This document shows positions 40,701-63,600 of a stretch of 64,000 nt of DNA, one piece after another. The position numbers and the translations under genes were made by a program. The notes below the pieces were generated by a model that saw nothing but the letters and a program-made list of their open reading frames with translations, made no database searches and was not told the origin of the DNA. Every line of letters begins with the position of its first letter. The stretch's first letter is position 1. The stretch is from Balanoglossus misakiensis (lineage: Eukaryota; Animalia; Hemichordata), in NCBI GenBank assembly GCA_040954595.2, contig CM082584.2:5956110-6020109 (forward strand), written 5' to 3'.

Positions 40701-40835
40701 ATTTTTGTAAAGAACCATAAAGACGAACATGGGCATGTATCAATCATAAAACTCACCGGTTCCATTTGACTCTATGGTAAAGAGAATCAGTACCGCTACT
40801 GTCACTAGCACCACTGCGGACGTCCTTTCGTCCAT
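37739..40835 (-). CDS. CUB + LDL-receptor class A domain single-pass membrane protein, paralog A
   Basis: Exons 40757-40835 (SP MDERTSAVVLVTVAVLILFTIESNGT), 39572-39714 and 39056-39281 (CUB: HCEKKI..YYQNNIDC..CIDYLVMYEG..WCG..RGFSLVFTA), 38482-38625 (LDLa CPSNKYHCTGPNYCIDKSLECDCKDNCGDGGDEKYC), 37739-37932 (TM GLSVGAIIGIVLAVLVFLGAVGLGVAYIVY plus tail). All introns GT-AG and in phase. Confidence 0.9.
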
Positions 40836-41905
40836 GTTCGATCCCAGATCGGTACACGAGTGTCCACAGTTGATTAGCAACCTATGTTTTGAATAGTTCG
40901 CTATCTTGCTACCATGGTTACCGGTACATTGTTTGACAAACAAAACCGTTATCCAACGCCCTGTACTGTATGATCTTTCACTTTGTGGCCACATTGAATA
41001 ATTATACTGTTTCCTGAACTTGCAGGTATCAAAAACACAACGTTGTTATCGATATAGGCCTACATAATGTTAATAATTAAAACCGAAGTTTCCTGTAGTT
41101 GTCCCGTGAGTTGGTCCGTTTACTTATTAGAATTAGCAGAAACAACTTATCGAATTACACTCTACCATTTGAACTTGGACATAGGCCAGTTGACATTATT
41201 GTGATCTTGTTCTAACACAATTTCTCACAAAAAACTGGTGAACGATTTGTGTGAAAATCAAACCGTCTATGGCTTATTTCCATATGTCACTATGGCAACC
41301 ATTTCTTAAAACTGTTAATCTTCTAAACAAAAAATGTCAGACTAAGTGATAGTCATGATGATTCCAACAGAAGGAACTGGCCGAATGGCATGATATGTGA
41401 ATAACCCCGGTAATGTTGAAAATGATGAGACACGTTGTTGTCATCTTGGCTGTTGTTCTTTTTTATTGTTGTTTACCAGAAGTACAATAAACCACAAGCA
41501 AAAAAGCAATCGACAAAACGTTACGGCTGTAGCTTTTGCCATAAAGAGGCGCGTGATTTATGACGATGCTTGACAACAGGTGGAGGAAACGCGACATCGT
41601 TGTAAACCACATACATTGTACCTCTTTACGGCAAGAATTTCTGGTTCGCGAGAATAACACACAAAGGCCTAGTCATGTCTACAGACGCTAGCAGAATCAG
41701 TGAGAGATTGGAGCAACATGGACGTTAATTATCTCTCGTTCCAGATCTGATCTGATGGTCAATAACATTTCCGAGTATGCTCAGGGTGCTAATATTGATA
41801 CCATACGCAAACGAATGATTAGTGAATGATAAAAAAGGAAGACTTTCTCCAAAGAATCAGTAGCCATGCGGATGACGTCAGAAGACAGGCCACATTTTAA
41901 AATTG

Positions 41906-42405
41906 TTAGTGTCCGGTTGGTCTCGATCCTTGGCTTTTAGTCTTTACGCCGCTGATTGATACTGCCACCGTAGCAGAGTGTTGGCCTTCTGGTGCTGGGG
42001 CAACGGAAGTGCCTGCTCTTCTCTGCGATGGGGTTTGCTGATGGTGACCTTTGACCTCGGCGTCTTTCCCGTATTTGCGGTAGATCACGTACACAACAAC
42101 TGCGATGAGTGCCACCGCGAGTAACACTCCCATCACAATGCCAACGATTGCACCGGCCGACAACCCGGAACCTTGACGAAAAATTTTAAAATTACATAAT
42201 GTAATCGTTTAAATGGTTAAATCATCCGCATATTGATTTTATGTATGTATGTATGTATGTATGTATGTATGTATGTATGTATGTATGTATGTATGTATGT
42301 ATGTATGTATGTATGTATGTATGTATGTATGTATGTATGTATGTATGTATGTATGTATGTATGTATGTATGTATGTATGTATGTATGTATGTATGTATGT
42401 ATGTA

Positions 42406-42494
<89 letters not shown>

Positions 42495-44832
42495 ATGTAT
42501 GTATGTATGTATGTATGTATGTATGTATGTATGTATGTATGTATGTGTGTATGTATGTATGTATGTATGCGTGTATGTACGTATGTATGTATGTATGTAT
42601 GTATGTATGTATGTATGTATGTATGTATGTATGTATGTATGTATGTATGTATGTATGTATGTATGTATGTATGTATGTATGTATGTATGCATGCATGCTT
42701 CAATGTTATATTTACTGAAATAATCTATCTTTATTAAGTCCTACTTCGTTTGCTGATCACTCTAGCTGATCGATATATACATCATATATAAACACTCTAA
42801 CAGTTTTATTATTCTATTTCCAAAAGTTGCGACATTGAAGGCATTAATGTTGTGGAATGCTTACTGTAGATGTTGTCTGCCTTGCAGGTTGAACAGTATC
42901 TTTCATCATTTCCATTACCACAGTTGTCTTTACAATCACACAACAGAGTGGTGTCTATGCAACGCATATCTTTACAATAGAATTCGTTGTTTTTAGGGCA
43001 CATATCTGGAATTGAACACAAACATGTGTGTAACACATACGGAGAAACTACTGAATGCACGGCCAACCGATCTATGTGGACTGCTATAACCTGGTAAGTT
43101 TATGTTTTTTTTAGCAAAATGGGTTGATTTGCATACATACCTGAGACTCCAGCAGGACTAAATGATGTAAATATCAACACAAATCCAACGTCATCATCCG
43201 TAGGCGTAGGATCGGTAAAAAACCTAAGAAGCATCGCGTCACCAGTACTGGTAAAGGTTGTTGAACTACGCGTACCGCACTCATGGGCTTTCCGACTCGA
43301 ATAATACATCTGGTCGCCGTCGTAAATGTCTAGGTAATCCGAACAAACTCCGCCCTCCGGTTGAGCTAGATGGAGCCATTCGAACTGCCAAAGAAAAAAA
43401 ATTGTGAATAAAAAAAATGTTAACCCCCATGACAGCTCAGTAGTCAAGTTTATGCAGTACAGCACGTGAAACAAAACTCACTCATCAACACGGCATTCAA
43501 ACATTCACACGTAATGTTTGGCGTGTACGTCTTTTTGTGTGAAAAGTTTCCCGGCATTCGATCGATGTGTGTAGCATAGCAACGAAATTCAAGGAAATAG
43601 GTTTCCAGTGTTATTGTTCAGTGTAAAACATTTTGTGACCAAGACATTTGCGATTTACTATATGTTGTCACGAACTTCCCAGGTGTCCTTGTTTAATATG
43701 TACATTTTTTTCGGTGAACCACAAATTCACCAAATTCTAAATTTTGACCCAAGCTCCCCTGCGAGAGATTTGAAAGGTGTGACCCTCTCTCTCTGGAACA
43801 GGTAAACTGCAAAATTCCCTCAGAATTCCTCCAAATTTTGATAATAAACGAGAGCTCTCTGATTTTCTGATGTTGTCGTTCAGATGACGTCATTGTCTTG
43901 TGCGTTACTCACTCTCAGGTCTAGCTTGTAACGAGGGAGAGGCGCCTTCAACACGACGCGGCAGTCGAGACTACGCGGGTAGAATTCGCCCCTTTGCGAC
44001 TTTATTCGTTCACCATGCAGAGTTATAGTCTCCCCGCAATGGTCACTCAAATATACTGGAATGTAAACAAGAGAAGAGATGTCATTTGAAGAAATACATT
44101 TGTAGAACGTGTAATTTGAACAAGACCAGCATATATCACAGAAGAGATTATGAGACGAATCATGACCGAAAGACCAAAGTGCAAATATGTGGTATGTGTG
44201 ATTACACTCGTGTAAAAAGTACACTCAAAAATGTGTTCTGTCATAATAGTCCTGATTTCTTTGTATGCGCATTTGCTTTCGATTCAGTGGTTATTTGTGC
44301 TGTGATACGAAGGGTCCCTGAGAAAGACAAACAGTGCACCGTTGCTGCCTATCCACTTCTTCACCCAAGGTCTAAGTATACGACAAGAAATATGTCCCTT
44401 TAACGTGTAGTATACTAAGAGGCAGTGGTTCACTGTGAGTTCGCATAGTAAACACATTTCAATAATCGTCCGCGATCAGACGGTTAGCTGACGGTAGCAT
44501 TCCTATGTAGACCCCCGCCGCTCGACACCTACAACGCTCAACTCGGATGATCTCAACGACGAAAAGCTTGTTGGTCCCGTCCGTTTTTCTTAGAAATGTT
44601 GCGATGCGATGCCAGTGTTAGATACAGAATGCAGATAACATGACTCAAATTTCACCACAAAACCACTAATAACGGCTAATTTAAAAGGCCCATTTCTCTC
44701 TAAAGTTGAATTGGGATCATAGACACGTGCATGGTCTCCTGGAAGAATAAACGTGTCCCACTCACCTGTAGCTTCGGCTGACTTCAACAGTACACACATG
44801 ATGACGAGCGCTGTATACACACAACCCTCCAT
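41906..44832 (-). CDS. CUB + LDL-receptor class A domain single-pass membrane protein, paralog B
   Basis: Exons 44766-44832 (SP MEGCVYTALVIMCVLLKSAEAT), 43913-44055 and 43141-43384 (CUB: CSDYLDIYDG..CG..VGFVLIFTS), 42865-43005 (LDLa CPKNNEFYCKDMRCIDTTLLCDCKDNCGNGNDERYC), 41906-42171 (TM GLSAGAIVGIVMGVLLAVALIAVVVYVIY). Same five-exon layout and intron phases as paralog A. Confidence 0.9.
42240..42698. repeat. Compound microsatellite (ATGT)n-(GT)n-(ATGT)n in the last intron of paralog B
   Basis: Directly visible; it produces the MYVC/HTYI artefact ORFs. Confidence 0.98.
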
Positions 44833-45981: not shown

Positions 45982-46521
45982 TTAAGTTAATGCCGCTAAA
46001 GGCTGGATATGAAAAGGTGATTCAGCGAACAAGGAGCACGTTTTCAGCTCGTGTATATTTGATATTGCAAGTGCGGGGCGATCCAGCCGCAACTCCTGTC
46101 CAACAAACAGAACGTCTCTGACCCTCTGTGGTGAGGCTACTGGCTGTGGCTGATGTTCTCTGGACGCTGGTTCATCCACTTCATGATGTACGTTGCTTAT
46201 TCTTTTCCTGGTAGGGCGTGAAACGTCATGCCTCACAAGCTGTCTTCGTGCCTTGGGTTCTTTACGGGCGTACCCCATGTTAAGCAACGGCAGTGGGTTG
46301 CCATCGGTGGGTTCTCCGTCGACGAAATGCCGGTCACAGACACGCGTGTTTTGCGTAGCCTTGAACGGTGGCGCTCTCCTTATCAAATGGATCCACTGCT
46401 GTCTCAACCCCGGTTTTCTCGACGGTGCAGGAACTCTGAAGAACCTGTGATGTCCTGAAGATTTGCGTTTACTGTTGCTGTTACACCCGACAACGCAGCA
46501 GTGATAACCACTTTTGGGCAT
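45982..46521 (-). CDS. THAP domain-containing protein (possibly transposon-derived)
   Basis: N-terminal C2CH THAP signature: CCVVGC..FFRVP..RQQW....RR.....RVCDRHF......P.P; 179-aa single ORF with no DDE domain seen. Confidence 0.8.
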   Translation of the reverse strand: MPKSGYHCCVVGCNSNSKRKSSGHHRFFRVPAPSRKPGLRQQWIHLIRRAPPFKATQNTRVCDRHFVDGEPTDGNPLPLLNMGYARKEPKARRQLVRHDVSRPTRKRISNVHHEVDEPASREHQPQPVASPQRVRDVLFVGQELRLDRPALAISNIHELKTCSLFAESPFHIQPLAALT

Positions 46522-47640
46522 GGTTGTAAACTATATATCAAAAAGGGGAAAGGGCAACACAGGTCAGAAAATACACTGAAAGGAAGAAAAAAATCCGACA
46601 AAACACTTGGTCAGCTGCTGACGTCCGGTTTAGTACCGAAACGACCTGTTACCCGCACTTTTTTGTCTTTATAAATATTCTCAACAATTTTCTTTTGTTT
46701 GCTTTCTTTGAGCGAGTTTCTGATACTGAGCTGAGTTTCGAATTTGAGGCTGGGCTTCTGGTTTCGGTCCTCCACACACGCTACATAGAGAGACTCGGAA
46801 CAAAATTTTCGGAAATGTATTAATTATGAAATGAAACCAATAGACTTGGAGCAAGCCCAGCTTAATCCGTGAAACTGTAAACTGGACTAACGCAACGCAG
46901 AAAGCATATGTTACAGAAAGTACCAGCACTGCATATAACATTCATACACAACTTCATGTACAAGTACATGTACAAGTGATACACATCCTGTTGTTTGTTA
47001 TGCTAATTAGTGTCACACACGCCTGAAGAAAGTGTGAACCTGTGCTTTCGAAGTTCACAGCCAAGCTGTCAAAAGTCGAACTCGCTGTTGTTTAAAAAAA
47101 AATCACGAGAAGAAAAAAACAAAAGTGTTGAGGGAAAATGTGACGTGTTTTTGAACTTTTAGTCAAGTGATATAGAACGGGCTGTGAAAAGTGGACGCTC
47201 AAAGCCGAAGACTACTATCTAGAACGGAAAGAAAACAAAGGTACCATCGACAAAATGACTGAATCAACGTGTTCGAATGCAGAAACATGGCAAACTCAGA
47301 CATACACAAGAGTTAGAACAGGTTCGGACGAGCGAAAGTTGAAAGCATAGTGGTGTACAACTTACCTCCTGATGTGCAGCGCTCGACTATCTTTGGCTTT
47401 TAACTTTGAAAATCTTCAAGAAAAACGATTACAGACGACGATTGATACGACAGACGAGAACTACAAGAAGGTATGGCGAGCGTAAGCGTTGGCGATGTGA
47501 TGTTGACGAGGGAAGGTGAACATCACAAGTGGCGTCTTCCGCGAGTGCCCCTCCAGTTTATAGCCTTGAGCTATCCCACAACCCACCGCGTTTCCAAGAT
47601 GGCGGAAAAGACAAACCTCGCCTGTCATTCTTTTGTTAGA

Positions 47641-47733
47641 ATTGTTACTGTGAATTGTTTACTAGTATATCTGATAGGACTTCAGTTGTTATTGTTACTG
47701 TGAATTGTTTATATCTGATAGGGCTTCAGTTGT
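47641..47733. repeat. Imperfect tandem duplication of ~45-50 bp
   Basis: attgttactgtgaattgttta...tatctgatagg.cttcagttgt occurs twice in tandem. Confidence 0.75.
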
Positions 47734-48505
47734 AAACAATAGTTGTTTTTGAACAATAGAACAAAAGATCTGGTACTTTCTACACATTTGTTGTATACCG
47801 TAGTAAATACTGGAATATATACCTTCATGTAAAAATGGAGTCCAGTTTTCACGGTATCCTTTGGCTGTACTCGCAATAAAGTCGCCTGACTGTAACTTCA
47901 CAAATTGATGTTCCCGTTGCCGTTTCTCAACTCCCACGCACGTCACTCAACACGTGTCCGTTCAGTCGTTTCCCATAATTTATAACGTGTCCAGACCGCC
48001 ATTATGTCTGTTTCAATAGACTGATAAATCAATCAATTGACTGAAAATGCAGACTCTGAAATGTTTTTGTTGTTGAGGAAAGTCTTGCCTTAGGGACACT
48101 ATACATGTATATAGTGGAGCAAGTCTGAAACAAAACGTGATGAGAACATGCGTACGATGGGGAAGATGAGGGCGTATTTTGCTGCAGCCAAACTGTCTGT
48201 CCTTTGAGGGCGTGATCAAATGACGTCAACTCTGTCCCCCCGTACCCGAATATTTGGTCGATAATATATTTTTATTACATACCCGAGCTACCGACACTAT
48301 TTTTTCGCTAAAGCGTTACTCATGGACCTATTTATTGAAATGACATATGCATGTTCATATGCATTTTCATAATACTCGAATGAGTGAACGAGCCATAAAC
48401 TGCCACCGGTCGCGTGATGTCAGAATAACAGCATTTTGGATGTAAAACTAAACAGGAAAGAAACTATGGTTGTAAACTTATGAACGAATAGCACGGAACC
48501 GAGCT

Positions 48506-48577
48506 GGGGATGTAGCTCAGTGGTAGAGCGCTTGCTTCGCATGCCAGAGGCCCCGAGTTCGAATCTCGGCATCTCCA
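48506..48577 (+). tRNA. tRNA-Ala (anticodon CGC)
   Basis: GGGGATG TA GCTC AGTGGTA GAGC G CTTGC TTCGCAT GCCAG AGGCC CCGAG TTCGAAT CTCGG CATCTCC A; G3:U70 Ala identity pair, intact A and B boxes, oligo-T terminator immediately downstream. Confidence 0.95.
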
Positions 48578-48965
48578 TATTTTTTATTTGGTCAAACTCA
48601 AACTACCTAGCCACACTTGCTTGCTGAAGCGAGATGGGAGATCTTGAACTGAAACTATGATAATACAGTTGCTGACCTTTTATGTCAGCAAGAATCCGTC
48701 GCGGTATTTCCCCAATGTGATCAATTCGGTGAATCTTCCCCTATCATTAGCATGTTTTTCTGTTGTAAAAGCGGAGTTTTGTTTTTATTTGATTCACTGT
48801 ATTCAATGGTTGACATGACTGCTTTCACAGATTCAGCGAAAGATGGGTTCGATCATGATATCAACTCATGCTGTGGTTGACTTGAGGTCGCCTGTCAGGC
48901 GCATGCGCATGTCCCCTCGAACGACTTTCGTTTCATCGTGTGGTACATGGTACCAAGAACTCCTC

Positions 48966-51900
48966 GGAAATCCCCGTCCATTCTATTGTATGACAAACAG
49001 ATCGGTTCTGTGTATGTAATTTCTTTTTGTAGCTAGCTGTTGCTGCGTAAGGCGTATTAATAGACGTTGACTCCTGAGAATCTGATGACATGACATTTAT
49101 AAGCAATCGAAAATAAACCGGACGATGCACTTCACAATCCCCGCCGGGCCAAAATGACTCCTGATTGGTTGCCGCTGCAAAGGGGTTTACCGTTGCGCGC
49201 TTGGCTGTATCGAGCATTGGACCAATCGGGTGGTTTCGCTGGAAACGAAAGTGCACCGGTGCTGTATATGAACGCGCGAGCATACGGACTCCGCACAGTC
49301 AGACGGAGATAGGACTGGACGACAGACACTGAAGAAAAACCAAGAATGACTGACCAAGCCGTGCAAGAAAGAATGACATCAGCTGTTGTCGGAGCAGTTG
49401 TGGCCGATAGCGCTGGTGAGTATAACGCTGCTACTGCCATCATGTCATTCAAATTTTACATAACTACACTACATTTGTATAAATTTTTTGAGCAGAAGTA
49501 TATTCCAATGTATTATGTAACCATGGCAACAGTACGTTGGCACATTCGAAGTACATGTATATATTTTGAGCTAGACGTGTAAGAATTATTTTAACGAGAG
49601 AACTCTGTCGTTGCATTGATGGACTCAGTATTAAAATGTGTGCGAAACGAAACTGACACGGATGATCAGAGTTCGACCTTTGACCCATCCAAGTCGCGCG
49701 TTGACCTGTAATCTGTCCTCGTGCAAGGTCACCGCCGAGGAAACACAGCTATGCAAGTCACTTTGTGTGCAGTCAAACCAATAAAGCCGATCCGGCCAGA
49801 GAAAAACAGACTGCCTGTAAATTAGGTCGCGTTCTTACCTGCGTAGTATGGAACTGACTCAGCAAAATGCAATACTTCTTTAAATATATATATATATATT
49901 TTAAATGGGATTGCGTGGATAATAAAGTATAATGTTATTCAAATTAATACCGATATTATTCGTGTCATTATAATCAGAACTCTTAGACTGAAATTGCACG
50001 ATTGCTCTCTCAGTTGCTTTTCCGCATTGCTGTCGACGTCTGTATAAAAGCTGGTGAGTTCATTGACCTTATGTGCTGCCGTAGTCTAGAACCGAGCCTT
50101 TTGCGATTTTTCGCTTTTTACTTACTGTGAGTGGGCGAAAGCGAAGATACCCGAAGGCTATAAGTTCTAGACGAATGCTACCGAGACGTTCTCTCTGACG
50201 CATCGGCGATCTTGTTTCTCATGAAATGGTTTATACGTCGCTGGACGGTAAAAAAAACCAAGAAGGGACAGTTCAGTGTGTAATGATTTACGTCATCACC
50301 ATATCAGTACTATATATATCGCGCACTTTCGTTTTCACTTTCGTCAAACGTGAACAAACAATAAATCTATCTCTCATTATGCTAATTAGGTGTTGTGGGT
50401 AAAATAAAATTAAATGCGAATACATCGGCAGGTGGAAGCACCGTATTTGTCATGAGCGCACATGAAAGGATTGTACACGAAATTGAATGCATACATACAT
50501 AAATACACACATACATATGGATGAAAGGCGAGGGAAAATGCTGACTCGGCAGTTTTCTTCGGAACCTTCAAGGACGGCTGACTTAGCGGATTTCCCCAGG
50601 GAAATGTCCAAGTTTCACTCTAAACCTGATGACAGCAATTTATTTAGTCAGAGAGACCAGTCTAAGGAAATTGTGACATTTTTAATTTTTTTTTAGTTTG
50701 CATTGGTATTTCGGGTTAAAAACCTTACTTGCCTGGTCACGGTGAACTATAACTCAAAGTTTCTCTTTGTGGTGTCGCAATATTGTAACTAAAATTACAG
50801 CACATTTGAATTTCATTTCAGCGCAGTTCAAATTAAACTTTGTGTTCAGCCTTTGGCTTTCAATTATCACCTGTGACGTTACGCAAAACGTCGTTTACCA
50901 TAAGTTCGCGAGTCATGTTTTCCAAGTATATGAAATGAAAACATGTTGTATTGTCTTTCTGTTTCGATAATAATTTCCCTTTCAATATGATACAAATGGA
51001 ATTTCCCCCCGAGTCAATTTCTATAGCATCTGGCCGGCAAATTGTTGTGGCGCTACGCGAACGCGAGGGTTTCCGCAGCGGCTGTAAATTCAATGTCACG
51101 AGCATTCTTGACAGCGCTATTTAAATTTGCATCTCTCTTTGACACCATTATCGGTCTATTATCGCAATATGTAAACACACACTTGACCTCTTCGTAGAAA
51201 ACATGACGAAATCGCCTGTTTTATTTCAGACGAACAGAGTTACACCTGAGTATGCTAAATTTCAAAACCGAAAATATGCGGGGTGATCTTTCTGTTTCGA
51301 ACTCAAATTCTCGTTCAATGTGTAACTGCAGTGTATCCTTTGTTGTTTTAAAGGGCATTCCCCTCCTCGATTATTTCAGAAGTTAGGCACATTTATCTCA
51401 TTGGGTACTTCCCCAACACATTGTTTCCACTAATAGCATTACTAACCAAAAAATGTATAAGTGATTTCCAAATAATCCGCTCCTTGCGATATGACTAAAC
51501 GGCAGCAAACAGCGATGACATCACTTCAGTAGTTTCACTTTCGATTCACGTGTCGCGGTAGATAACGTGGCCAGATCGCCCCTTTCCTTTGCCATTCCGC
51601 CATCAGCAGCAGAAAGATGAAGTCAGAGAGGCGAACACTGGCTTATATTGTCCTCGTCCCCATTTCCCTGGCCTACCTGGGTCTCCTGGTCTGCTTTTAC
51701 CCCTCCCGATACCCTTCGGAGTACGAAATAAGCGAGGCGGCCAAGCGTCGAGCTCAAGCCGCGGTCCTCGGCGCAGTTGTCGCTGACGCAGCTTGTAAGT
51801 AGCCGCCGAGTACCTACACGGCGTCACACCGGTCAAGATCGGAAAGCCTCGTGCATGACTTGGGGGTTTAGTCACAGGCTGTCATCCCCGTCATACAATT

Positions 51901-52043
51901 ATGTTCTACGTTAGCACCGATGCCACTATAGGATTAATACATTCAACGCCTGTTTTTGTGGTAGTGACCATTCATTACGGCTTACAGATACCTGCCACGA
52001 GTAATTCTATATGAACTTATCGGTCTGCAGCCGGAAAAATCCC
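48966..52043. promoter_or_regulatory. Cluster of IRF/ISRE and NF-kB motifs plus CCAAT boxes around the two SelJ-like first exons
   Basis: IRF-type: 49242-49253 GAAACGAAAGTG, 49644-49654 GAAACGAAACT, 50324-50343 CACTTTCGTTTTCACTTTCG, 51531-51542 AGTTTCACTTTC. kB-type: 48966-48975 GGAAATCCCC, 50588-50597 GGATTTCCCC, 50998-51007 GGAATTTCCC, ~52033-52043 GGAAAAATCCC. CCAAT/ATTGG boxes at ~49164-49226. Confidence 0.55.
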
Positions 52044-54655
52044 TGTTCATTTCCACGATGTCCATATCGCGTTGACGTGTACTTATCATTTTCATACTTT
52101 CAGAGCAGAAAAAATGTTGACCGTACTTAGGCCCTGCAGTCTATTCTCGCCACTTCTTGTTTTACATGTACTATATTACAGCAGTTCCAGCATCTCATTG
52201 ATTGATTCGATGGTGTCACCTGACATTTTTAACTTGAGCATATGCATGTAGGAGAAATAAAGATGAAATACTTAATAGTAGTATAACATTTTTGTGGGCG
52301 TTTTTCTTTGTAGCTGTTCCATTGCACTGGATCTACGATGTTAGAGAACTCGACAAAGTGCTTGACGGTTGCACCAACCCCGAATTCAGAGATCCGTCCG
52401 CCAGTCCATTCTATGATATCCCCACCGGAAGTAGCAGTCTCTATGGCGACCAAACCCTCGCCATGTTGGAGTCCCTGGTAGAATCCAACGGTAGGTGAAT
52501 CTCTGCATTTTCAAATTGGCGAATTTCAGCACCTTTTCCCGCCACTCGTGAACCTTGAACCCAATTCGAATATGACCATTGCAGTGAACTTTTGAAATTA
52601 TCATTGAACGCAAAAACAATATTCTGTTTTGTGTGTGTGACAAAGGCTTGGACACAAACGACTACGCCGAACGTCTCTACAAGCAGTTTGGACCAAATAC
52701 AGAATACGACAACCCGGAAAATGCTAAGCATCGCACACCGGCCGAGGACGACATGAAATTGCCGCTGAAGGGACCATGGAAACCGCAGGTTATCAAACAC
52801 TTCGAGGCGAACTGGGTGCAGAAGAAAGAAGTGACAGGTGAGAATCTCCCACAATGCACCTGTAGGTAGGCCTGCATGCTTAGGTTTTCGTTGCTGCCCT
52901 CATAACGCAATGCAAATAAGTCTTGTACTTCACACCTATCAGACTGAGTGAAAAATGGCAAATGAACATGTTGAAAAGTGATATCATGTGACAAACGAAC
53001 ACATTTTGACACAACCACGCAGGGACGTGCAAACGGATACTGACGGTTGATACATGTACGTAGGCCTTAGATTTATCTTTGTAAAATTTGTTGAATTCAA
53101 AACAGGATCTGAGGTGAAAAAGGACATGCACGCCGTTTGCATCGTACCACCGCTCGTTGCCAAGTATGCAGGTGACCCTGAACTCCTGGCAAAGGTCAAG
53201 TTGGCCATTGAAGTCACCACAGTCAACCAAGAAGCTGTCGCAGTTGGTATGACAGCTGCCAGGTGAGTGCTTACAAGTCACATCTTACTTCAGATTTGCG
53301 CGTGCAGCTCCATGCTATGCATTGTTTCTTGAAAGAGAGAGGGGAGAGAGGGGGCGAGGAGAGGGGGGGCAGACAGATGGAGAGGGAGACAGAGAGACAA
53401 ACAAACAAACAAACAAACGAACAAACAAGCAAACAAACAAACAAACGGAGAAAAGAGAGACAGTAACATTTTCCTCGTTTCATCCAAACTATATAGCTTA
53501 CTTTCTGTAAGGAAAACAAGAGACATGCTTGCCATTAAAATCCTGCAAGAAAAGCTAAATAATCTAATAAATCGTTTACATTTTAGGTTATTGGAACATT
53601 ACGTCTTACATGGCCCAGACGACAAAGCAGTGGACAAAGTGATCGCAGACTTGAAAAGTGCTGACAGACGACATCCACATGACAAAGATGGCGTCCTCGC
53701 AGACGAACTACAAAAAGTGATGCAAGCCAAGAGCAAGTCCAACAGGGAAGCTACAAACGAATTTGGACTGAGTTGTGGTAAGCAACTTCGTTATTCCGTA
53801 GAAAAGTCACGGTCATTTATTGTTTCCTGACATGTCAAATTAAAAAAAAAAAACAGAAAATGAAAGTTCAACTAGTATTTCTTTGAATATGTACATTTCC
53901 AGTACGGGGCTCCTGGTTGAACGGGATATTAACTTATGAGTATGTCCCCATAACCAGAGGTACATATCCTAGGTGAGATCTAAACGACCAGTGATAATGT
54001 TCCAAAGCGATGGCGGTCTTGGAGATCCCAAATCGTGTTGCAGGACCCGTATATGACCAGAGAGTTTCACACAAGTGCGTACATGTACTCTAAACTCGTC
54101 CTTTTATTACTTCGCAGAGGTTCCCGGTGCCTTCCAGGCAGCTGTCCATGCAGTGGTGACCAACCCCGACTACACATCTTCAGTTCGTGCTACCTTGTAT
54201 GCTGGCGGCGACTGTGTCGGCCGGGCTGGTTTTATCGGTGCATGCAGTGCAGCACAGGTAAGTGCGCCCTCAACGTAAAACACAACACCCCAAGTGAACA
54301 GTGAAAAAAAATTCACTAGTCGTCCAGTGCGTTCTTTTTCATTTACATCTCATATCGTTTTCAACATTTTTTGGTATTTTTTACTATAATTAATAACACA
54401 TATCATCGATAGGTACCTCGAGACAGACACATTAACTTGATCAATGATTCGATAGCAGGATAATGCTTGTATTTGAGGTCCACTTGTAGGTGTCAACCAC
54501 TGAGGATAGAAATAGCAATGCTGATCTAATGAAATTTCTTAATTCGTTATTTGTGTTGGTTACAGAAAGGACTGCAAGCAATTCCTGAAGACTGGACAAA
54601 GAAGACGTTCAAGTACGCCAGAGCCTTGGACTTGGCAAAGCGTCTGGTCAAGTAA
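49346..54655 (+). CDS. selenoj: Selenoprotein J / crystallin J1-like ADP-ribosylglycohydrolase family protein (Cys homolog), soluble isoform
   Basis: Exons 49346-49415 (MTDQAVQERMTSAVVGAVVADSA), 52314-52490 (PLHWIYD..PEF...SASPFY....G....YGDQ), 52646-52837 (FGPNTEYD..LPLKGPW), 53106-53262, 53587-53777, 54118-54257 (VPGAFQAAVH..GGDCVGRAGFIGAC), 54566-54655 (IPEDW..TAA). All GT-AG and in phase; motifs are colinear with fish SelJ as I recall it. Confidence 0.92.
51617..51794 (+). CDS. Alternative first coding exon of the SelJ-like gene with an N-terminal signal-anchor helix
   Basis: MKSERR-TLAYIVLVPISLAYLGLLVCFY-PSRYPSEYEISEAAKRRAQAAVLGAVVADAA then T|gtaagt; phase 1, joins exon 52314 in frame, homologous to exon 49346-49415. 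Confidence 0.85.
53336..53446. repeat. GA-rich and (AAAC)n microsatellite in an intron
   Basis: gagagaggggagagag...acaaacaaacaaacaaac. Confidence 0.85.
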
Positions 54656-56147
54656 TCACCTCATGATTTCTACGGCGAAGGCAATCACAGATGATAGTAG
54701 AAGTATGATAAAAAGTGTTTGAGGCACGATTTCAGAACCTTAAAATTAAACAAAAAATTGACACGTTTCAGTTTTATGGCTCGTAGGTTTTTTCACCCTT
54801 TTTTACCGTTTTCGTGTTTATAACTGCGCAAATGTGTAAGCTCTGATGACAGCACCCTGTAAAATGCAAGTACGTATTGCAACCACTACAGATATTTTAG
54901 ACATTAAAACCAACCCCAATGATGGCTGCTGTGTATCAAAATCAACACGTCCGATCTGAACAATCTCTTAACACTTATCATTATCCCTGGTAAAATTGAT
55001 ATTGTTTAAGCCCTCCATGTCGATTTTATTCGACGTTATCAGTCGCTGCATTCATAGCTATTTGTGCTGCGTTCAACTTCTGTCAGGTTGCCAAATAAAC
55101 AATTCAGTCGATTGTATGTACAAAGGTCACGAGTTAGCCTCTTCGTCCCACGTAAACGTTTTTTAATTGTCCCCAAGAGCATGAAGTGAGAACAGGCTTA
55201 ATACTGTTTTATTTTCGTTCACTTGCAGATCGAAAACATTATTGGTTTCGAGACTTTAGTTAAAATCGTCTTAAATTCAGTACATGTACTTTAGATGAAA
55301 GGAAGCAGTCACGATCTGAATTGAAAATCGAAAAATTCAGTGGTTTCTGACGCGGAAAACAGTGTTTGCCTTTTTCAGACGAGGTGTTTGTCATGAGGTT
55401 ATATGGGGTTTCTCTGTGTGGTTGTGTTTTCAACTTTTCTCGTACAGAACTCTAAATTTTATGTAAATATTACATCTTATTATTCAATGCAATGAAAAAA
55501 ATGTGTTTCTATGTCATATTATTATCTGCCGAAATTGACGAGAATGGAAGCCCGGCGACCTGGTATTACATTATGGTACAGGATTTACCGAAGCAATATC
55601 ATGACTAACTAAGACAAAAACGGGCAAAATGGAATAGTAGGAGAGTAGCCTTGTCCTTTTGGATACTACTTTTTTTTAAACTTTTGCAGCCACTAATATG
55701 ATCACGACGAAAATCCCAGTGTTCAGATTATCAAAAATGCTCGATGTTTTTACTGTGTGAGGTTTAGTCAAGCTCCGGATTTCCGAATACGTTGCCCCGC
55801 AATTCCTTCTATACACTAGTTTTGTTGACAAGCAGAATGACAGAAAATGTAAACATGGTGTAGAGCAGAGCAAGAATCTGTAATCGATTACGTGGCTCAA
55901 TAAAAAGCAAAGTGTAATTTGATTAAATGTTTTACGTATTTTGATTTATCGGTTTTATTTTAATTTTGTACATGTATTGGCTACACACCTACTTGCTGTA
56001 TGTATTTGGTTTTACCAAAAGAAAAAAATAAACATTTGTGAAACATGTACAATGTATATAAACGTAGTGTTTTCTGTCACACAGGCTTTGTATTGAGCTG
56101 TTGCATTTGATTGTGACATACAAATGTATTTTAATTTGTCTGTAAAC

Positions 56148-56243
56148 GATGGATGGATGGATGGATGGGCGGACGGACAGACGGACGGAGGTATGGATGG
56201 ATGGATGGATGGATGGATTGATAGACGGACGGATGGATGGATG
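56148..56243. repeat. (GGAT)n/(GGAC)n microsatellite
   Basis: Directly visible. Confidence 0.92.
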
Positions 56244-57204
56244 ATACGAACATATTTTTCATATTCCGCATCTTATATAATGCTACTTTTGTGTACCTGT
56301 GTGTGCTACACAAGCTAAAGTGACTTCTGCCACACTCGTACTTACCGTATCCATCACTACTGCGACCTCCTTTTTCAGCTCTCTGATCTGATACGTTCAA
56401 TGACCCGGATCCCATTTCAAAATGTCAATAATTGTTCGCCTGTTTTGGCACAAAATCGTGATTATTAGCATTTTATCTCCTAAGATTACCAAGGGCTTTG
56501 TACTAGAGTTTCTCATGCATGCTGCCGCTAGGGGGACATTAGACCAGTTTGAACTACTGACAAGTCAGCGATAAGATAGAATGTCGAGAGTTTGTATAAT
56601 AGTGGTGTTTTGAACAAATGTACTGAAGTTTTAGCAGTTCCATGTGCATGATGGCCCACTGCTTATACCAAGCATGCACAAAGAACGACAATGGCAGTTT
56701 TACTGACCAAGTCTTTCCATAAGGCTTGTCCGGTACAGATGCATGGCATCATGTATGAAATTGCGCAACATCCATGACACCACATCACTTCTTATCAACC
56801 GAGTAAAGTTCACTCCTTATTAACTGTCGACATTAGCCTAATCTCGCCGAACTTTGAAATGGAAAACTTTTATCGAACAGTAAAGGCTAAAGGTCTGTAC
56901 ATCGGGCACAAGATAGACAGTTTGTATTAGTGACCCTGGACAGGTGAATTCGACGCTGTACGAGCTTAATAGCAGGAAATTGATTCACCGAACGTCGGTG
57001 GATCTGACGGCCATATTGTTCTGGTCGACACGGTGGTGGATCCCTTTCACTTGAAATGTTTACGTAAAAGCTATAGAGTTCTACCACGTAAGCGAAATTC
57101 GGGTGCCCATAACATCATGAGCTGGACTTGCTATGGTCCGGTAGAATAGAAAAAAAGTGACAGGGTTCCTTTCGTGTAAAGCCATGGGGGGGGGGGGGGT
57201 TCCA

Positions 57205-57280
57205 TTAGGCCAAAAAATATGTGCTGTTCCGATTACCCGACCTACCCTAATTTTAATCCGCCGACGCTAAATGTTTTTAA
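57205..57280 (+). mobile_element. Possible terminal fragment of a non-autonomous DNA transposon
   Basis: ttaggccaaaaaatatgtgctgttccgattacccgacctaccctaa resembles repeat ends I recall from marine invertebrates; no partner end found in the window. Confidence 0.3.
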
Positions 57281-57617
57281 GTTTGTACATGTACATATAC
57301 ATACATGCATATACATACAGACATGCATCTGTCCATCTATCCATCCAGCGGATAGCTAATTACCGATAAAGTCCCATCAATCAAATATGTATCCCTCGAG
57401 CTAACCGGTGCAGTTTGATGCGCGTAGACACATGTACGCATGTTGTCGGTCGGCAAGTTATCTTGATTGACGGCGCGGCAACCAATGCGCGAGCGAATGT
57501 GCCATTGTGGAGCAGCCCCTCGTTTTGAACGGCATAGATATCTGTCTGAATTTTAACATCGACACCACAACTCGGCGGAGGTTCCCATCGACCGCACACA
57601 CACTGGGACCGCTAAGG

Positions 57618-60600
57618 ATGATTCGACATAAACTGCCCTTGGCAGTGGCGGTGTTTCTTTCAAGTAAGTGATTTCCACCTTCCCTAAAATGCAACTGACT
57701 ACTTCATGTCGACATTACTTTGTACTGAAAACAGCTATGGGTGTCATCCGATCGAAATACCTGTTAAAAGTAGTTCCGATTCTTCTTCGCGTTATTTTAC
57801 CTTGGCTCTAACATGATCTGATCACATACATGTAAATTTTCCATCTCCTTTTATTGTTCTTCTGCATGTTATTATTGATATTTACTAATTTAGACAGGGT
57901 GCATTTTACTTTATTCAATCTTTTATTCAATTTCGGAGTTCCAAATGATGCACATCTTTATTCCGAACGATCCCGAATTCCTAAAAGTACAGAATAAAAC
58001 CAAACCACGCAGTTGTGCGTTTTTAGAAGAAGAAAACAAGTTTATTCTAAGATATAAAGGGATGGTATTCATTTGCGCAGTTGAATTTTACAAGTAAAAG
58101 GTAACACTGACATATTCGTGTTGAAATGATGAGGTCATATCTTTCATCTCTCTATGTCCCTGTGTCTGTCGTTTCCCTTGTTCCCCCTGTCTGTGTGTCT
58201 GCTTGTGTCTCTGTGGATGTCCACCACTAACTTTCTGTTTGTCTATCTGCTTGTCTGTATATAGTTTTCGCTCATCCTGGGCTGGCCGGAAAAAGCCAAG
58301 CGGAATGTCAAACAACAGGTAAGACACTTTGCAGTTAGGTTAAATGTTATAACAGTATGTCAACGAAATATTATAGATGAGTATGGTTAGGTGATAAAGT
58401 GTGATAGCGGGGTATCTTTTGAATTAATGTTATCTATTTCCTCGTTTGCGGGGGCCATCATTTGCCCTCGTTCTATTGACAGCAGACGCCGCGCTTGTAG
58501 GCACCTGGAAATCGTCTCATAAAAATTCCATTTAAATCTGCGAGATATTTCTGAGATTGTGAGTCTGGTTTTGCTCGTTTAGCTTTGCAAATATTAATTA
58601 TTAACCATGCATGAACTCCTATAAAGAGACAATGATTGAATACACGGAATGAGTGGGCAACGCAAAAATGGTGAACTTAAACCTGAAAACACCAGAAAGA
58701 GAGTTGAAATTCTTATCTATTCTTGGCGTACGGTAAAATTGAAATTGTTATAATTTCTTTTAATTTATGGATTTTCGATTGTCCTTTGTGAGTATAATCA
58801 TACAAATTCGTCATAAAAAAATAACGGCCATGATCGCTCTTGTTTTTGAAGAACAAGACCGGCATTCATTTAGTCGCTAATGATGGTACAAGCTGCTGAG
58901 TCAGCATATTTTCACCTATGGCATGTCTATGAGCAAATACCTCTAATTATATTTATCTTAAAATTGAGGGTCGGAGACCATACGATTTGATTCGACCGCA
59001 GAGTAAGATTTTCGTTTGGTTAAGGTACGTGTAAGACGTCATTAAATGAATGTAGTAGACGTGTGTTTTCAAGCAATTCTCTATGTTATCACCCCTATAA
59101 TGTGCGTACATTTTTAACACTGCTTCAATATGGTCCTACTGTGATTGTCATATTTCAGCTTGTGTCGGACCAGGCAATTCGCTTACCTGGAATGACCATA
59201 ACTGTTGAATCTATGTTGATGTTTTACTAAGTTACATTACTTTGATTAGAAAGGGAATAACGTGATAAAAAAATACAGTTTTTTTCGTCACATTTAATAG
59301 AGTTTTAATATGTACACTTCTTGTGAATCAAGAATTGTTTAAATTGTGACGGAGCGTTGTCAAAAGAGCGTGGTGCCAACAATACCTAACAAACCGGTTG
59401 TTTCTACAGGTGTATATCCTGACGTGTTCATTGACGCCAAAGTCGACGAACGATGTGTGGATTACATCACCATAAGTTGGTCGCTGGATCCCTGCGTGAA
59501 TCCTGTGTATGGCGTTGGAAGTTACGTCATCACCATCGATCCCGCTACGGTGGAAGGCGTGACACAAATTGACCTCAAAGGGACGGAGGTTCTGATTGGA
59601 CTGTACGACCCCGTCACTGGGCGGATGGTCTACACCATTCAAACTATCCAACCCGAATTTTCGTATGAAATCACTGTTCTTGTCCGAGATCAAAATGATG
59701 TCAACGAAGCGACAATAAGTATCATAAGTGGTAAGTTACCGGGCTTTGACAGTAATATCCATTCTTTTTATTGTAAAAGAAACTAGCTTGAGTTATAATA
59801 TACAAATAACGGCGCGCATGCGTTCAAGGCACACAATACTCTTCTCAATCATAAACATCGTGACAGAGACGGATTTATTCGTCACTGAGATTAAAGCTCA
59901 CAGAATTAATCACGCCAGTTTCATTTATAAATCACTGAAATATCACTTCAGTATTGATTCTTTTATAGTTACATTTCCAGAACAGGTTTTGTTCTGCCGC
60001 CATACCCCTACGCCCAGCTGACCAACATTGTATACCCTAATATATATTTTGACGGTATAAAACCGAAGGGATTGTCTATAATGGCATAGCGTTGGATTCG
60101 TTGCACGATCGCTAGTACAGTACGGCCACCCTTATGCTTTCCTTGTAGATGACATCTGCTTCCAGGTATTAAATCCATGTCAAAATGGCGCCACGTGCTG
60201 TGATGATGGTGTGACCTATGAGTGCCGATGTGCAGGTGATTATGAAGGAGTGCACTGTGAAGACTTAGGTAATCCATGTGACCCAAATCCATGTCAAAAT
60301 GGTGGATTGTGCATTCGACAACATCCTGGATTCGTATGCAGCTGTGCAATAGGCTATAGCGGTACCTACTGTGAGACATGTAAGTACGAATAGGCCATCT
60401 TATTTTAATTTCAAAGAAGTATTTTGCGTACTGTTTGTAAGTTACTGCCTTTTGTTATATGATTATAATTACATATAATCCCATGATATCTTTCTTTGTT
60501 TGACGTCATCGTATACGAGTGGTTTTCGCGGAGCAGTGCAACTTCGAGCCGCAGGCGAGAAGTTGTACGCTTCCGCGAAAACCACGAGTATACGATGACG

Positions 60601-63600
60601 TTAAACAAAGAAAGATATCATGGGATTATATATTTATCACATGAACAGTCTTCTTATTTTTCGTTAGAAGAGGCAGGACTAAAACAATTCAGTACCTTGC
60701 AACAATTTTGGAGCGGTGTCGTATTTTACTGAGCGGGATTATGTCCCCCAGGAGATATATGTTGGGAGATTTTATGAATGATCAGCGATAGTTCATCATT
60801 TGCATATACGCAAATGGTGAACTATCGCTGATCATTCATAAAATCTCCCAACAAGTCGTCCCGTTGAGTTCCGTTCGCTCGAAGTTCGGCCTTACACAAA
60901 TGTAATCGATTCTCTAACAATTTTACTGCAACCTGTTGCCACGTCTTATACATTTCGTTGACCGGTGCAATAGAGAGGTTCAGTCGTCACGCTGAACTGG
61001 CTCGAAACAATTCCCCACGCTGATTCGACTCGGAACGTACCGGACTTGCGCCTAGCCTAGGCTATGTACACCTGACCCAAAACTTTGACAGCCACGATCG
61101 TCCATGATCGTTGCGTCGACTGTCTTCTTTCCAAATTCCACCTTTCTGTTTTGAGCTTACAAAGCGTTATTGTCATGGAACCGTAATTTTTTTATTTCAT
61201 TTCTGTATTGTAAATGCCGCGCGCTACACGTACTGTTTCTGTTTGACAACAAAGCTACGGCGAATCGGTGGAAATAGTTCCGGTTGATGACGTAACACAG
61301 GGGTGATCAGGATTTTTGATCTGTCCTGGTCTACGTCACACAGGTGGTGATCAGGGCCAGTTCATGTGATAATTATGTGTATTCTGTAACGTGGTAAAAT
61401 GCATAGTTTTTCAATACTAATTGGCAATCCCAGTGCAAATACTCAGAGTGATTCACCATTCGATAAACTAAAATTCAAGTATTGTTAGAACCACAGGTGT
61501 TCAGTATATGTTTTACAGGATGTTTTAATTATTACCACCGTCAAGTAAAAATGAAAGTTTCAATGATTAATAAGAATAATTTCTTTCGTGCTGCAGTGGT
61601 ACAGGTTCCCGTCGATTGCTCACTGAACAGCGTTGAAGCACATTGTACATCAGCTTTGATAGACTGGGAAGAAAGTGGAGTTGGTTTACCACCGGAAAGG
61701 TATGAGGTGCATGGAAACGTAATCGGTGAAACTGGAAAACTCTTCTTGTGTGGATGTGACTACCCGGAAACATCGTGCCTGGCAGATAACTTGGTGAAAA
61801 GTGCGACGTACCTCTATGAGATAGTGAGCATCGAGGGAGAGGACAGTGCAGCCTGTGATGACCTTGAACTGTTCACTCTAAAAGGTGAGGAAAGTTCGTG
61901 AAAGAACTTTTATTTGTCGGGATTCGAACCCAGGAACCGCCCTACCTATAGGAGTTGCAGCGATTAGTAGGTTGGATATTAACATATGGCTCCGTTACTT
62001 TGAACGGTGCGTATTTGATTGTTGCAAATTAAACGGCACAACTCTTTGCCACGAGAAGCAAATCTTGATTACACAAGTCATCCTTTCCAACTTGGCAGAT
62101 GTATATTACAGCTACAATTAAGGAATATAAAAATACAGCTTTCTAAAACACATTAAAGGAAATTTATATGTAAACTTCCTCTTCGTCATGGAAATCTATA
62201 TTTTTCTACTTTTATTTTTTTATAATTTATCAACAAATACCAATAGATGAACCGGCATACACAACATGCCCCGATGACCCAGCTCCTGTGAATGCAGGAA
62301 GTGAGGACCAAGCACGGGTTTGGTGGGAGGAACCACAGGCTGAGTGCGTGGGACCAGACACATATGAAAGATCATCACACATTCCCGGTGACTACTTCCC
62401 CGTTGGAACTACAACAGTCACTTACGAACTGATTGACAGCGCTGTGGTTGTTGACTCATGCGAGTTCTTTGTCACTGTGGAAGGTAAACTGTCTACAAAC
62501 AATATCTGTAACGCTTGTTTTTTATGAGAGTTACAAGTTCAACAGCTAATGGGATTAAAGCTTTGATAAAATGGCACATAGATATTACGCAAGAGTGGCA
62601 TTTTCGTAGTACTGAAATGGAACAAGCCCCAACTTAACTAAATTGTTATCCCTACACACAGCCTGAATGTCACGAAACGTTTTGTGTTTTGCTTGTCCTT
62701 GAGACATCAGTTCCAATTGTCCTGGGGACTCTTTGGGTTTCCACCATTAAGCTTTAGGACATTGCTTGACCAACACGACTTTGGTTGGCGACGAAATGGT
62801 ACAAGATCAAAAGCGTTTATGGCCATTTGAGTAATTTGAATTTTGATGGAGTCAGCCGTTATACTGTGGTTGCTTCCAACCATATATCTGTATGTTTCGA
62901 TCAATGTTTGATACCCACTCGACACCCACCCCCTTCCATTCCTGCGGAGAACGTAGAAACACCTCCGTACCATGGGGCTTTCATCCGGGAATGGACCACT
63001 TAAAGCATTTGCATTTTGGCAAGGAACTCCTCTGGACTCAACTTTTTGAAGCCCTTCTGAGTAACTTGCACGACTTGCAAGGCTGGTCATTCATATTAAC
63101 ACCATTCAAATCCGAAACCTTGTGTGATTGGAAATGCATATTCATTCTTTCCCTGCCATATTGCCTGGAAAACATTTTTTTCGGGGACTGCCATGTTTAT
63201 CCTTGTCAGCGAATACTAGTATGTACCACGATTGTTTTAGCTTTCGCTTTCCTTCACAGCGTCAACGAACAATGGCAGCCCTAACATCAAATGTGAAAGC
63301 AAACAATCTGGTAAGTCATTGTAAAATTTACATTGTTGTTACTGTTCAAATGAGCACTTCTAATATAGGTTATAGCTCTTTAAACATTTTCAAGACACGA
63401 AAAATACTGTGATCCCAGCTTTTCCATCAGTGTGAAGAGTGTATTTGGTGCGACGTTTCGCCGTAAAATTAGCGTTGTTTACGAGTGTGGTAAGATGCCA
63501 AAAACACCTAACAAGTTTCGCCGTAAAATTAGCGTTGTTTAAGAGTGTGGTAAGATGCCAAAAACACCTAACAAACCCGTCGTCTCCGCAGTTGTTTTTC

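What the first reader, a model, noticed from the sequence alone, without database searches (positions are those of the whole stretch)
49346..54655. SelJ/crystallin-J1 ADP-ribosylhydrolase-fold gene with duplicated alternative first exons: soluble versus membrane-anchored (ecto/lumenal) isoform
Seen: two homologous ATG-starting exons (49346-49415 ERMTSAVVGAVVADSA; 51617-51794 RRAQAAVLGAVVADAA) each encode the first conserved helix, each end in a strong phase-1 donor, and each join exon 52314 in frame. I see no remains of a second gene body between them. Exon 1b adds basic MKSERR, a ~22-residue hydrophobic stretch and a short stalk. Established: ARH-family proteins (ARH1-3, DraG, SelJ, J1-crystallins) are described as intracellular, while ARTC transferases act at the cell surface and secretory pathway. 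Inference: by the positive-inside rule 1b is a type II anchor placing the ARH-fold domain in the lumen or outside the cell, so promoter choice would switch its compartment. I know of no described ecto-ARH.
Basis: partly seen in the sequence, partly recalled or inferred. Interest (0 to 1): 0.85.

Follow-up and report, generated by a model that had tools for sequence, protein, structure and literature searches.

The report
Soluble or anchored SelJ-like protein isoforms
A gene of the poorly understood SelJ/J1-crystallin family, likely from an acorn worm, has two alternative starting exons, conserved in the acorn worm Ptychodera flava, that are predicted to give a soluble form and a membrane-anchored form likely facing the inside of the secretory pathway or the cell exterior, but it lacks most metal-binding residues of known ADP-ribose-removing enzymes, so it is likely not the missing cell-surface eraser.

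Summary
Observation confirmed. Both first exons have an ATG and a phase-1 GT donor and give stop-free 338/374-aa proteins. The Ptychodera flava ortholog (body 76% identical) is annotated with the same two isoforms, 336/372 aa, and each exon pairs with its counterpart, so neither is a relic. The anchor is older than this gene: 4 of 5 genes of an acorn-worm clade (support 100/98) carry it with Pro15, Ala19 and Tyr20 in register; the fifth is 5'-partial. Flanking charges favour a lumenal domain; this is untested, and a cleaved signal or a cytosol-facing domain remains possible. 'Ecto-hydrolase' is not supported: the fold is ARH, but the Glu flap, both TDD aspartates and the bridging aspartate are replaced here and across the subfamily by a His/Tyr/Cys/Arg set. 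A secreted ARH-domain protein is already reported in Chlamydomonas. Extra finding: IRF-type and NF-kB-type motifs cluster upstream of both exons. Verdict: new variant of a known kind, interest 0.5.

The parts
49346..49415 (+). Exon 1a coding part (23 codons + 1 nt): start of the soluble isoform, first core helix with invariant Asp
   Evidence: 14/23 identical to P. flava X2 start
51617..51794 (+). Exon 1b coding part (59 codons + 1 nt): basic N-terminus, hydrophobic segment, stalk, first core helix
   Evidence: 32/59 identical to P. flava X1 start
51635..51700 (+). Hydrophobic segment, residues 7-28, with Pro15, Ala19, Tyr20 shared by all four acorn-worm anchors
   Evidence: 13/22 identical to P. 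flava against 2/10 in the stalk
51728..51730 (+). Ile38 codon (ATA), where two anchored paralogs have an in-frame Met
52314..52490 (+). Exon 2 (shared): His64, Ser101, Tyr103, Asp105 (1b numbering)
52646..52837 (+). Exon 3
53106..53262 (+). Exon 4
53587..53777 (+). Exon 5; Cys298 (TGT, 53774-53776) at the near-invariant Cys column, recalled as the Sec position of SelJ
54118..54257 (+). Exon 6: Asp330-Cys331-Val332-Gly333-Arg334, aligned to the GGDTD(T/S) motif of solved ARH proteins
54566..54655 (+). Exon 7 with stop codon; candidate poly(A) signals at 54745 (ATTAAA) and 55094 (AATAAA)
48899..49253 (.). Putative promoter of 1a: the window's only NRF1-type palindrome (48899), kB-type site (48966, minus), CCAAT boxes (49162, 49220), IRF-type sites (48924, 49243)
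   Evidence: motif matches only
50324..50343 (-). Tandem IRF-type sites between the two exons
50998..51007 (-). kB-type site about 610 nt upstream of the 1b ATG
   Evidence: fits the wider recalled consensus, one mismatch to GGGRNYYYCC
51516..51552 (.). Putative promoter of 1b: CRE-like site (51516), the window's only ISRE core (51531-51542, 75 nt upstream of the ATG), E-box (51547)
51578..51606 (+). Pyrimidine-rich stretch ending in CAG: possible acceptor for 1b (out of frame with 1a) or transcription-start region

Best explanation
One SelJ/J1-crystallin-type gene carries two alternative first coding exons that likely come from two promoters and are predicted to give a cytosolic 338-residue form and a 374-residue form likely held by an uncleaved type II anchor with its domain in the secretory lumen or outside the cell, where a His/Tyr/Cys/Arg pocket would likely act on an ADP-ribose-like ligand by cysteine chemistry rather than by the two-metal hydrolysis of ARH1/ARH3/DraG. 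Shown: exon anatomy and open frames; conservation of both exons in P. flava; the anchor in four acorn-worm genes; ARH fold of the P. flava model; loss of the acidic metal ligands; motif clusters. Inferred, with my odds: both isoforms expressed (0.9); secretory-side topology (0.7, of which uncleaved anchor 0.5); not a canonical two-metal hydrolase (0.85); nucleotide or ADP-ribose-type ligand kept (0.5); IRF/NF-kB induction (0.5). Inferred history: the clade's ancestor made both forms from one exon through an internal Met behind the anchor (kept in two paralogs). In this lineage that position is Ile, and exon 1a supplies the soluble form.
For: Open 338/374-aa models with GT-AG introns. P. flava X1/X2 differ only in the first 60/24 residues. 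Exons pair by orthology: 1a to X2 13/21 against X1 7/21; 1b to X1 14/21 against X2 9/21, with bodies 238/312 identical. Five acorn-worm genes form a clade (100/98; 40 of 156 sequences used, exon 2 onward). Four of them have the anchor with invariant P15/A19/Y20 (shuffle P 0.0011 on three paralogous genes). Net charge C-side minus N-side is -3, -4, 0 and -2. The AlphaFold model of P. flava X1 has pLDDT 94, pTM 0.90 and a low-confidence N-terminal helix at 15-27 outside the core; all listed Foldseek hits are ARH-fold proteins. Against three solved ARH proteins (S/T)DD aligns without gaps to Ser101-Leu102-Tyr103, and GGDTD to GGDCV. Among 154 homologs (gapped rows left out): 151/151 have S/T at 101; 0/151 have D/E at 102 or 103; 0/125 at 332; 3/150 have Glu at 64. 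His64 is in 143/150, Tyr103 142/151, Cys298 122/131, Arg334 118/125. IRF-type motif: 8 of 23 window matches lie in 48800-51620 (4.4% of the window; at most 3 in any equal stretch elsewhere; scan P 0.0008), with both kB-type sites and the only ISRE core.
Against: No transcript evidence was seen for the window; the P. flava isoforms are automatic annotation whose read support I could not view. Topology rests on a charge rule, and one of four anchors is neutral. The window and P. flava proteins have no N-glycosylation sequon, and sequons are not enriched in homologs with hydrophobic N-termini (0.54 against 0.37 per 100 aa, p 0.38). Two anchored paralogs keep an N-x-S sequon in the pocket loop, awkward for a lumenal domain. 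P15 and A19 also fit a signal-peptidase pattern (recalled rule). No ARTC-type or PARP exon was found among 135 long window frames. The motif scan used recalled consensus patterns, some chosen after seeing the sequence. The two first exons are no more alike (11/21) than each is to amphioxus (12/21), so the duplication order is unresolved.
Confidence: 0.5

Rival explanations
1. Exon 1b encodes a cleaved signal peptide (cut after Ala19), so the long isoform is secreted rather than anchored.
For: Pro15 and Ala19 are invariant in four genes and sit at the -5 and -1 positions of the recalled signal-peptidase rule. Several distant homologs have N-termini that look like plain signal peptides (P0086, P0091, P0092). 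A Chlamydomonas ARH-domain protein with PredAlgo 'SP' is the top secretome component.
Against: The hydrophobic run continues nine residues past the supposed cut in the window and in P. flava. The 22-residue segment is long for a signal peptide and more conserved (13/22) than the stalk (2/10).
Confidence: 0.2
2. Exon 1b is an N-out/C-cytosol anchor (ER reverse signal anchor, or mitochondrial or peroxisomal outer membrane). Both isoforms then work in the cytosol, and the choice is free versus membrane-tethered.
For: No sequons in the window protein; two anchored paralogs keep a pocket sequon; one anchor is charge-neutral. A free-thiol Cys/Sec pocket suits the reducing cytosol (inference). Known ARHs are cytosolic, nuclear or mitochondrial.
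Against: Basic residues lie before and acidic ones after the segment in the window and P. flava, the reverse of the recalled pattern for such anchors.
Confidence: 0.2
3. One reading: 1b is a true ecto-ADP-ribosylhydrolase that removes ARTC-type marks by the ARH two-metal mechanism.
For: ARH fold, Pfam PF03747 at E 4e-35, two retained aspartates (57, 330) and Ser101. How extracellular marks are erased is posed as an open question.
Against: Glu flap, both TDD aspartates and the bridging aspartate are missing subfamily-wide, while all characterized ARHs need the binuclear centre. Far below the DraG and Tri1 cut-offs (15 against 337 bits, 20 against 490).
Confidence: 0.07
4. One first exon is an unused relic of a duplication, or 1b is an annotation artefact.
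For: No transcript was seen for this window; gene predictors can extend frames.
Against: Both exons keep ATG, length, frame and orthologous sequence in P. flava despite 24% body divergence. The anchor recurs in two more genes, which hit exon 1b at E 7e-5 and 4e-4.
Confidence: 0.04

Closest known systems
Ptychodera flava crystallin J1-like gene, RefSeq XP_070563742.1 (X1) / XP_070563743.1 (X2)
   Same: Ortholog: body 238/312 identical; the same two N-termini, anchor and pocket residues.
   Different: Automatic annotation only; my nine paper searches found no paper on the anchor or the isoforms.
Selenoprotein J (SELENOJ) / jellyfish J1-crystallin subfamily
   Same: Same subfamily pocket (Asp57, His64, Tyr103, Cys298, Arg334); a shark protein named selenoprotein J is a top hit.
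   Different: Cys codon and no SECIS hit; Cys331-Val332 where most members have Asn-Cys/Ala; N-terminal anchor, absent from the amphioxus, brachiopod, bivalve, crinoid, shark and eel hits. The family is described as functionally uncharacterized.
ARH1 / ARH3 / DraG / Tri1 ADP-ribosylhydrolases
   Same: Fold (Foldseek E 2e-11 to 1e-7, 13-18% identity), helix-1 Asp and the GGD motif.
   Different: Lacks Glu flap, TDD aspartates and bridging Asp; those enzymes are intracellular and need two metals.
Chlamydomonas Cre11.g477950
   Same: ARH-domain protein predicted for the secretory pathway and found as the most abundant mating-secretome protein (PMC6313938).
   Different: 94 kDa and algal; no isoform switch in the passages read; I did not test its subfamily.
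Compartment-switching isoforms such as human PARG
   Same: One gene gives isoforms in different compartments by N-terminal choice (PMC7050489 passages).
   Different: PARG is a macrodomain, and its isoforms stay in nucleus, cytosol and mitochondria.

Membership tests
ARH / ADP_ribosyl_GH fold superfamily (PF03747) | Profile score above the curated cut-off and all-helical ARH fold | tested here: met
   P. flava ortholog 122 bits against cut-off 26.2; single window exons 2 and 6 hit below cut-off; fold search on the ortholog's model
SelJ / J1-crystallin subfamily | Closest named homologs are J1-crystallin-like/SelJ, and the subfamily pocket residues are kept | tested here: met
Selenoprotein J in the strict sense | In-frame TGA (Sec) plus SECIS | tested here: not met
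   TGT at 53774-53776, no internal stop; no SECIS match in 47000-58000. That this column is the Sec position is recalled.
Catalytic ARH (ARH1/ARH3/DraG type) | Binuclear metal ligands: TDD motif, Glu flap, DTD(T) motif with bridging Asp | tested here: not met
   TDD reads Ser-Leu-Tyr, the Glu flap is His64 and the bridging Asp is Val332 (requirement). Mapping by sequence alignment, not by superposed coordinates.
Catalytic ARH (ARH1/ARH3/DraG type) | Hydrolysis of ADP-ribosyl-acceptor bonds | not testable with these tools
   needs an enzyme assay
DraG or Tri1 equivalogs | NCBIfam cut-off | tested here: not met
   15 against 337 bits and 20-22 against 490 bits
Type II signal-anchor membrane protein | Single N-terminal hydrophobic segment of about 20 residues, basic before, neutral or acidic after | tested here: met
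   residues 7-28, charge difference -3; P. flava -4; paralogs 0 and -2
Type II signal-anchor membrane protein | Uncleaved, with lumenal C-terminal domain | tested here: inconclusive
   no sequons, no sequon enrichment; possible peptidase pattern; no predictor available
Alternative-promoter gene | Separate transcription starts in front of each exon | tested here: inconclusive
   motif clusters in front of both; possible acceptor at 51606; no RNA data

The most novel reading that the evidence does not exclude
Acorn worms have an immune-inducible (IRF/NF-kB-driven), membrane-anchored ecto- or lumenal SelJ-type enzyme that strips or processes ADP-ribose marks on the secretory side by a new Cys(Sec)/His/Tyr/Arg mechanism, with a second promoter supplying a cytosolic copy. 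It would be the first animal eraser on the same side as ARTC enzymes and the first activity for the SelJ family.
Probability: 0.12. Interest if true: 0.82.

Novelty: new variant of a known kind. Interest (0 to 1): 0.5.

Why it matters
SelJ is a selenoprotein family with no known function, often thought structural because of the jellyfish lens crystallins. A conserved anchor, a two-compartment isoform switch, a near-invariant His/Tyr/Cys/Arg pocket and immune-type promoter motifs argue for an active role. They also give a Cys-containing member that is easy to express for assays. If the domain is lumenal and acts on ADP-ribose, it bears on the open question of how secretory-side ADP-ribosylation is reversed. 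Interest is tempered: alternative first exons that add an anchor are a common device, both isoforms already stand in RefSeq for the ortholog, secretory ARH-fold proteins occur elsewhere, and the canonical hydrolase site is absent.

Tried and rejected
No whole genome is held for the window. No RNA holder was listed, so no reads were laid; this is no evidence either way. Exon 1b alone found no homolog among 336 candidates of 105-2000 aa; the ortholog came through exon 2. First exon boundaries were off by one and were corrected. My first mapping of the TDD motif onto Tyr-Gly-Asp (note 2) was wrong: the ungapped alignments and the 151/151 S/T column put it on Ser101-Leu102-Tyr103. The idea that the 5' leader of 1a is a decayed anchor was rejected (12 protein comparisons, best P 0.21; DNA P 0.48). 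A second gene body between the exons was rejected. Productive 1a-to-1b splicing was rejected: all 6 AGs within 56 nt upstream of the 1b ATG are out of frame, and the 4 nearest, translated, run into stops. No SECIS. The sequon test of topology was uninformative (7 of 16 against 46 of 98 at the pocket). The Atlas search on residues 1-42 gave no usable hit. The Saccoglossus poly(I:C) paper has no mention of crystallin or ADP-ribos- in its text or in the one supplement file held as text; I saw no expression tables, and they may bear on induction. The original SelJ paper is not held. Passages of 10.1101/574913 and PMC9503650 had nothing on this. No earlier findings. No complex prediction was run.


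Full report
Observation. The sequence shows both exons as described. Exon 1a (49346-49415) and exon 1b (51617-51794) begin with ATG, end in phase 1 before GTGAGT and GTAAGT, and join exon 2 at 52314. With exons 52314-52490, 52646-52837, 53106-53262, 53587-53777, 54118-54257 and 54566-54655 they give 338 and 374 residues with only the terminal stop. Their 3' ends are 71% identical over 41 nt. A family profile run over all six frames of the window finds the seven coding exons and the extra first exon; the best hit elsewhere has E 2.2. Ten homologs gave 9 weak hits between the two exons, none better than E 0.066. All six AGs within 56 nt upstream of the 1b ATG are out of frame with 1a, so the exons are mutually exclusive in coding terms. 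One AG (51606) follows a pyrimidine-rich tract, so 1b could be reached by splicing from an unseen non-coding exon instead of from its own promoter.

Both exons are conserved. Exon 2 found one protein among 24 candidates, Ptychodera flava crystallin J1C-like isoform X2, 336 aa. Its cluster has two members; the other is isoform X1, 372 aa. They differ only in the first 24 and 60 residues, the lengths of 1a and 1b with the split codon. Bodies are 238/312 identical to the window. 1a matches X2 (14/23) and 1b matches X1 (32/59; hydrophobic segment 13/22, stalk 2/10). Over the last 21 residues each exon is closer to its counterpart (13 and 14) than to the other isoform (7 and 9). An unused exon would be unlikely to keep start, length and frame over that distance (inference). 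The P. flava models are automatic annotation, and I could not see their read support. The window is therefore likely from an acorn worm related to Ptychodera (inference from homology).

The anchor is clade-wide. Further searches gave two Glandiceps talaboti proteins and a second P. flava gene. A tree of 40 of the 156 sequences then aligned (the window and 39 high-ranking hits, exon 2 onward) joins these five genes at 100/98. Four carry an N-terminal hydrophobic segment with Pro15, Ala19 and Tyr20 in ungapped register (shuffle P 0.0011 over three paralogous genes). The fifth is 5'-partial and begins with a 1b-like stretch. The amphioxus, brachiopod, bivalve, crinoid, shark and eel hits start directly at the first helix, like 1a. 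Two anchored paralogs have an in-frame Met seven residues before the conserved Arg of helix 1; the window and P. flava X1 have Ile there (ATA in the window). The second P. flava gene has two annotated isoforms, both anchored. I infer an ancestral single exon with two starts, later split into two exons in this lineage. The order of events is not resolved, since 1a and 1b are no closer to each other than to amphioxus.

Topology. Residues 7-28 are the most hydrophobic stretch. Net charge after minus before is -3 (window), -4, 0 and -2, which by the recalled positive-inside rule favours a cytosolic N-terminus and a lumenal domain. Against certainty: there is no N-glycosylation sequon in the window or P. 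flava protein; no sequon enrichment in homologs with hydrophobic N-termini (p 0.38); two anchored paralogs keep a sequon in the pocket loop; and Pro15/Ala19 fit a signal-peptidase pattern. My odds are 0.5 uncleaved type II anchor, 0.2 cleaved and secreted, 0.2 cytosol-facing, 0.1 other. Hydrophobic N-termini are not rare in this subfamily: 15 of 112 full-length database homologs, 12 of them outside the acorn-worm clade and not looked up by name; one of those in the tree (P0059) falls far from that clade.

Active site. The P. flava X1 model is confident (pLDDT 94, pTM 0.90), and all listed structural hits are ARH-fold proteins. All characterized ARH enzymes use a binuclear metal centre with a bridging Asp, and the Glu flap is crucial in ARH3 (PMC7050489, section 22 read whole). 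In alignments with three solved ARH proteins, (S/T)DD falls on Ser101-Leu102-Tyr103 and GGDTD on GGDCV; in two of them the Glu after helix 1 falls on or next to His64. Among 154 homologs, gapped rows left out, none has Asp or Glu at 102 or 103 (0/151) or 332 (0/125), and 3/150 have Glu at 64. Asp57 (141/144), His64 (143/150), Tyr103 (142/151), Cys298 (122/131) and Arg334 (118/125) are near-invariant. The pocket is rebuilt rather than decayed. I commit to cysteine-based chemistry on, or binding of, an ADP-ribose-like ligand; this is inferred, not shown. The Cys codon is TGT, and no SECIS was found.

Regulation. An unplanned result: 8 of the window's 23 IRF-type sites lie in 48800-51620, against at most 3 in any equal stretch elsewhere (uniform-placement scan P 0.0008; local Markov expectation 0.6-1.2). 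The same stretch holds the only ISRE core (51531-51542, 75 nt before the 1b ATG; 13 of 14 letters of the consensus in PMC6543449, passages), both kB-type sites (48966, 50998), the only NRF1-type palindrome and 2 of 6 CCAAT boxes, the last two kinds upstream of 1a. This supports promoter activity in front of both exons and hints at immune induction; acorn worms have IRF and NF-kB (PMC10210618, passages). The patterns were recalled and partly chosen after seeing the sequence, so this is a lead. No ART or PARP exon was seen among 135 frames of 75 aa or more elsewhere in the window.

Literature. SelJ with J1-crystallins forms a distinct subfamily and is functionally uncharacterized (10.1101/2025.05.29.656587, passages). 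Mammalian ARH1 is cytosolic, and how it could reverse marks made by extracellular ARTs is an open question (PMC7072381, passages); ARH1/2 are cytoplasmic and ARH3 nuclear/mitochondrial (PMC8003356, passages). Chlamydomonas Cre11.g477950, an ADP-ribosylglycohydrolase with PredAlgo call SP, is the top component of the mating secretome (PMC6313938, passages and one supplement row). Nine searches (listings seen, nine papers opened) showed no paper on an anchored or isoform-switched SelJ/J1-crystallin in animals. The library lacks most subscription papers, including the original SelJ paper.

Verdict. The feature is real and conserved. It is a member of the SelJ/J1-crystallin subfamily of the ARH fold; it is not a selenoprotein and not a canonical ARH. 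The soluble-versus-anchored switch is well supported, a lumenal domain is likely, and the ecto-hydrolase function is not supported. New variant of a known kind; interest 0.5.

Noticed in passing
window 48800-51620: Dense cluster of IRF-type sites with an ISRE core and two kB-type sites around both first exons; suggests immune regulation of a SelJ-like gene.
   Followed up: partly
window 48505-48578 (+): tRNA-Ala(CGC) gene about 770 nt upstream of exon 1a, the only tRNA in the window.
   Followed up: no
window 45985-46530 (-): Open frame with a THAP zinc-finger domain (E 6e-13); a THAP gene or transposon piece.
   Followed up: no
window 1565-9892 (-): Exons with C-type lectin, SUEL lectin, HRM and GAIN domains: likely an adhesion GPCR.
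   Followed up: no
window 38895-43477 (-): Exons with CUB and LDLa domains and a transmembrane-like segment.
   Followed up: no
window 60082-62524 (+): Exons with EGF and HYR domains.
   Followed up: no
P0004 (Glandiceps XP_077986655.1) and P0007/P0155 (P. flava XP_070532727.1, XP_070532728.1): Anchored paralogs with an in-frame Met right before the core helix: possible dual start from one exon.
   Followed up: partly
P0048, P0059, P0066, P0071, P0072, P0077, P0080, P0086, P0091, P0092, P0106, P0152: Distant unnamed SelJ-type proteins with signal-peptide-like or anchor-like N-termini; secretory targeting may have arisen several times in this subfamily.
   Followed up: partly
PDB 6sga/9hny chain FP (mt-SAF23): An ARH-fold protein named mt-SAF23 matches the subfamily profile (E 4e-15) and also lacks the DTD motif, an example of a repurposed ARH fold.
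   Followed up: no
window 49869-49914: Near-perfect 46-nt palindrome around an AT repeat in the intron after exon 1a.
   Followed up: no
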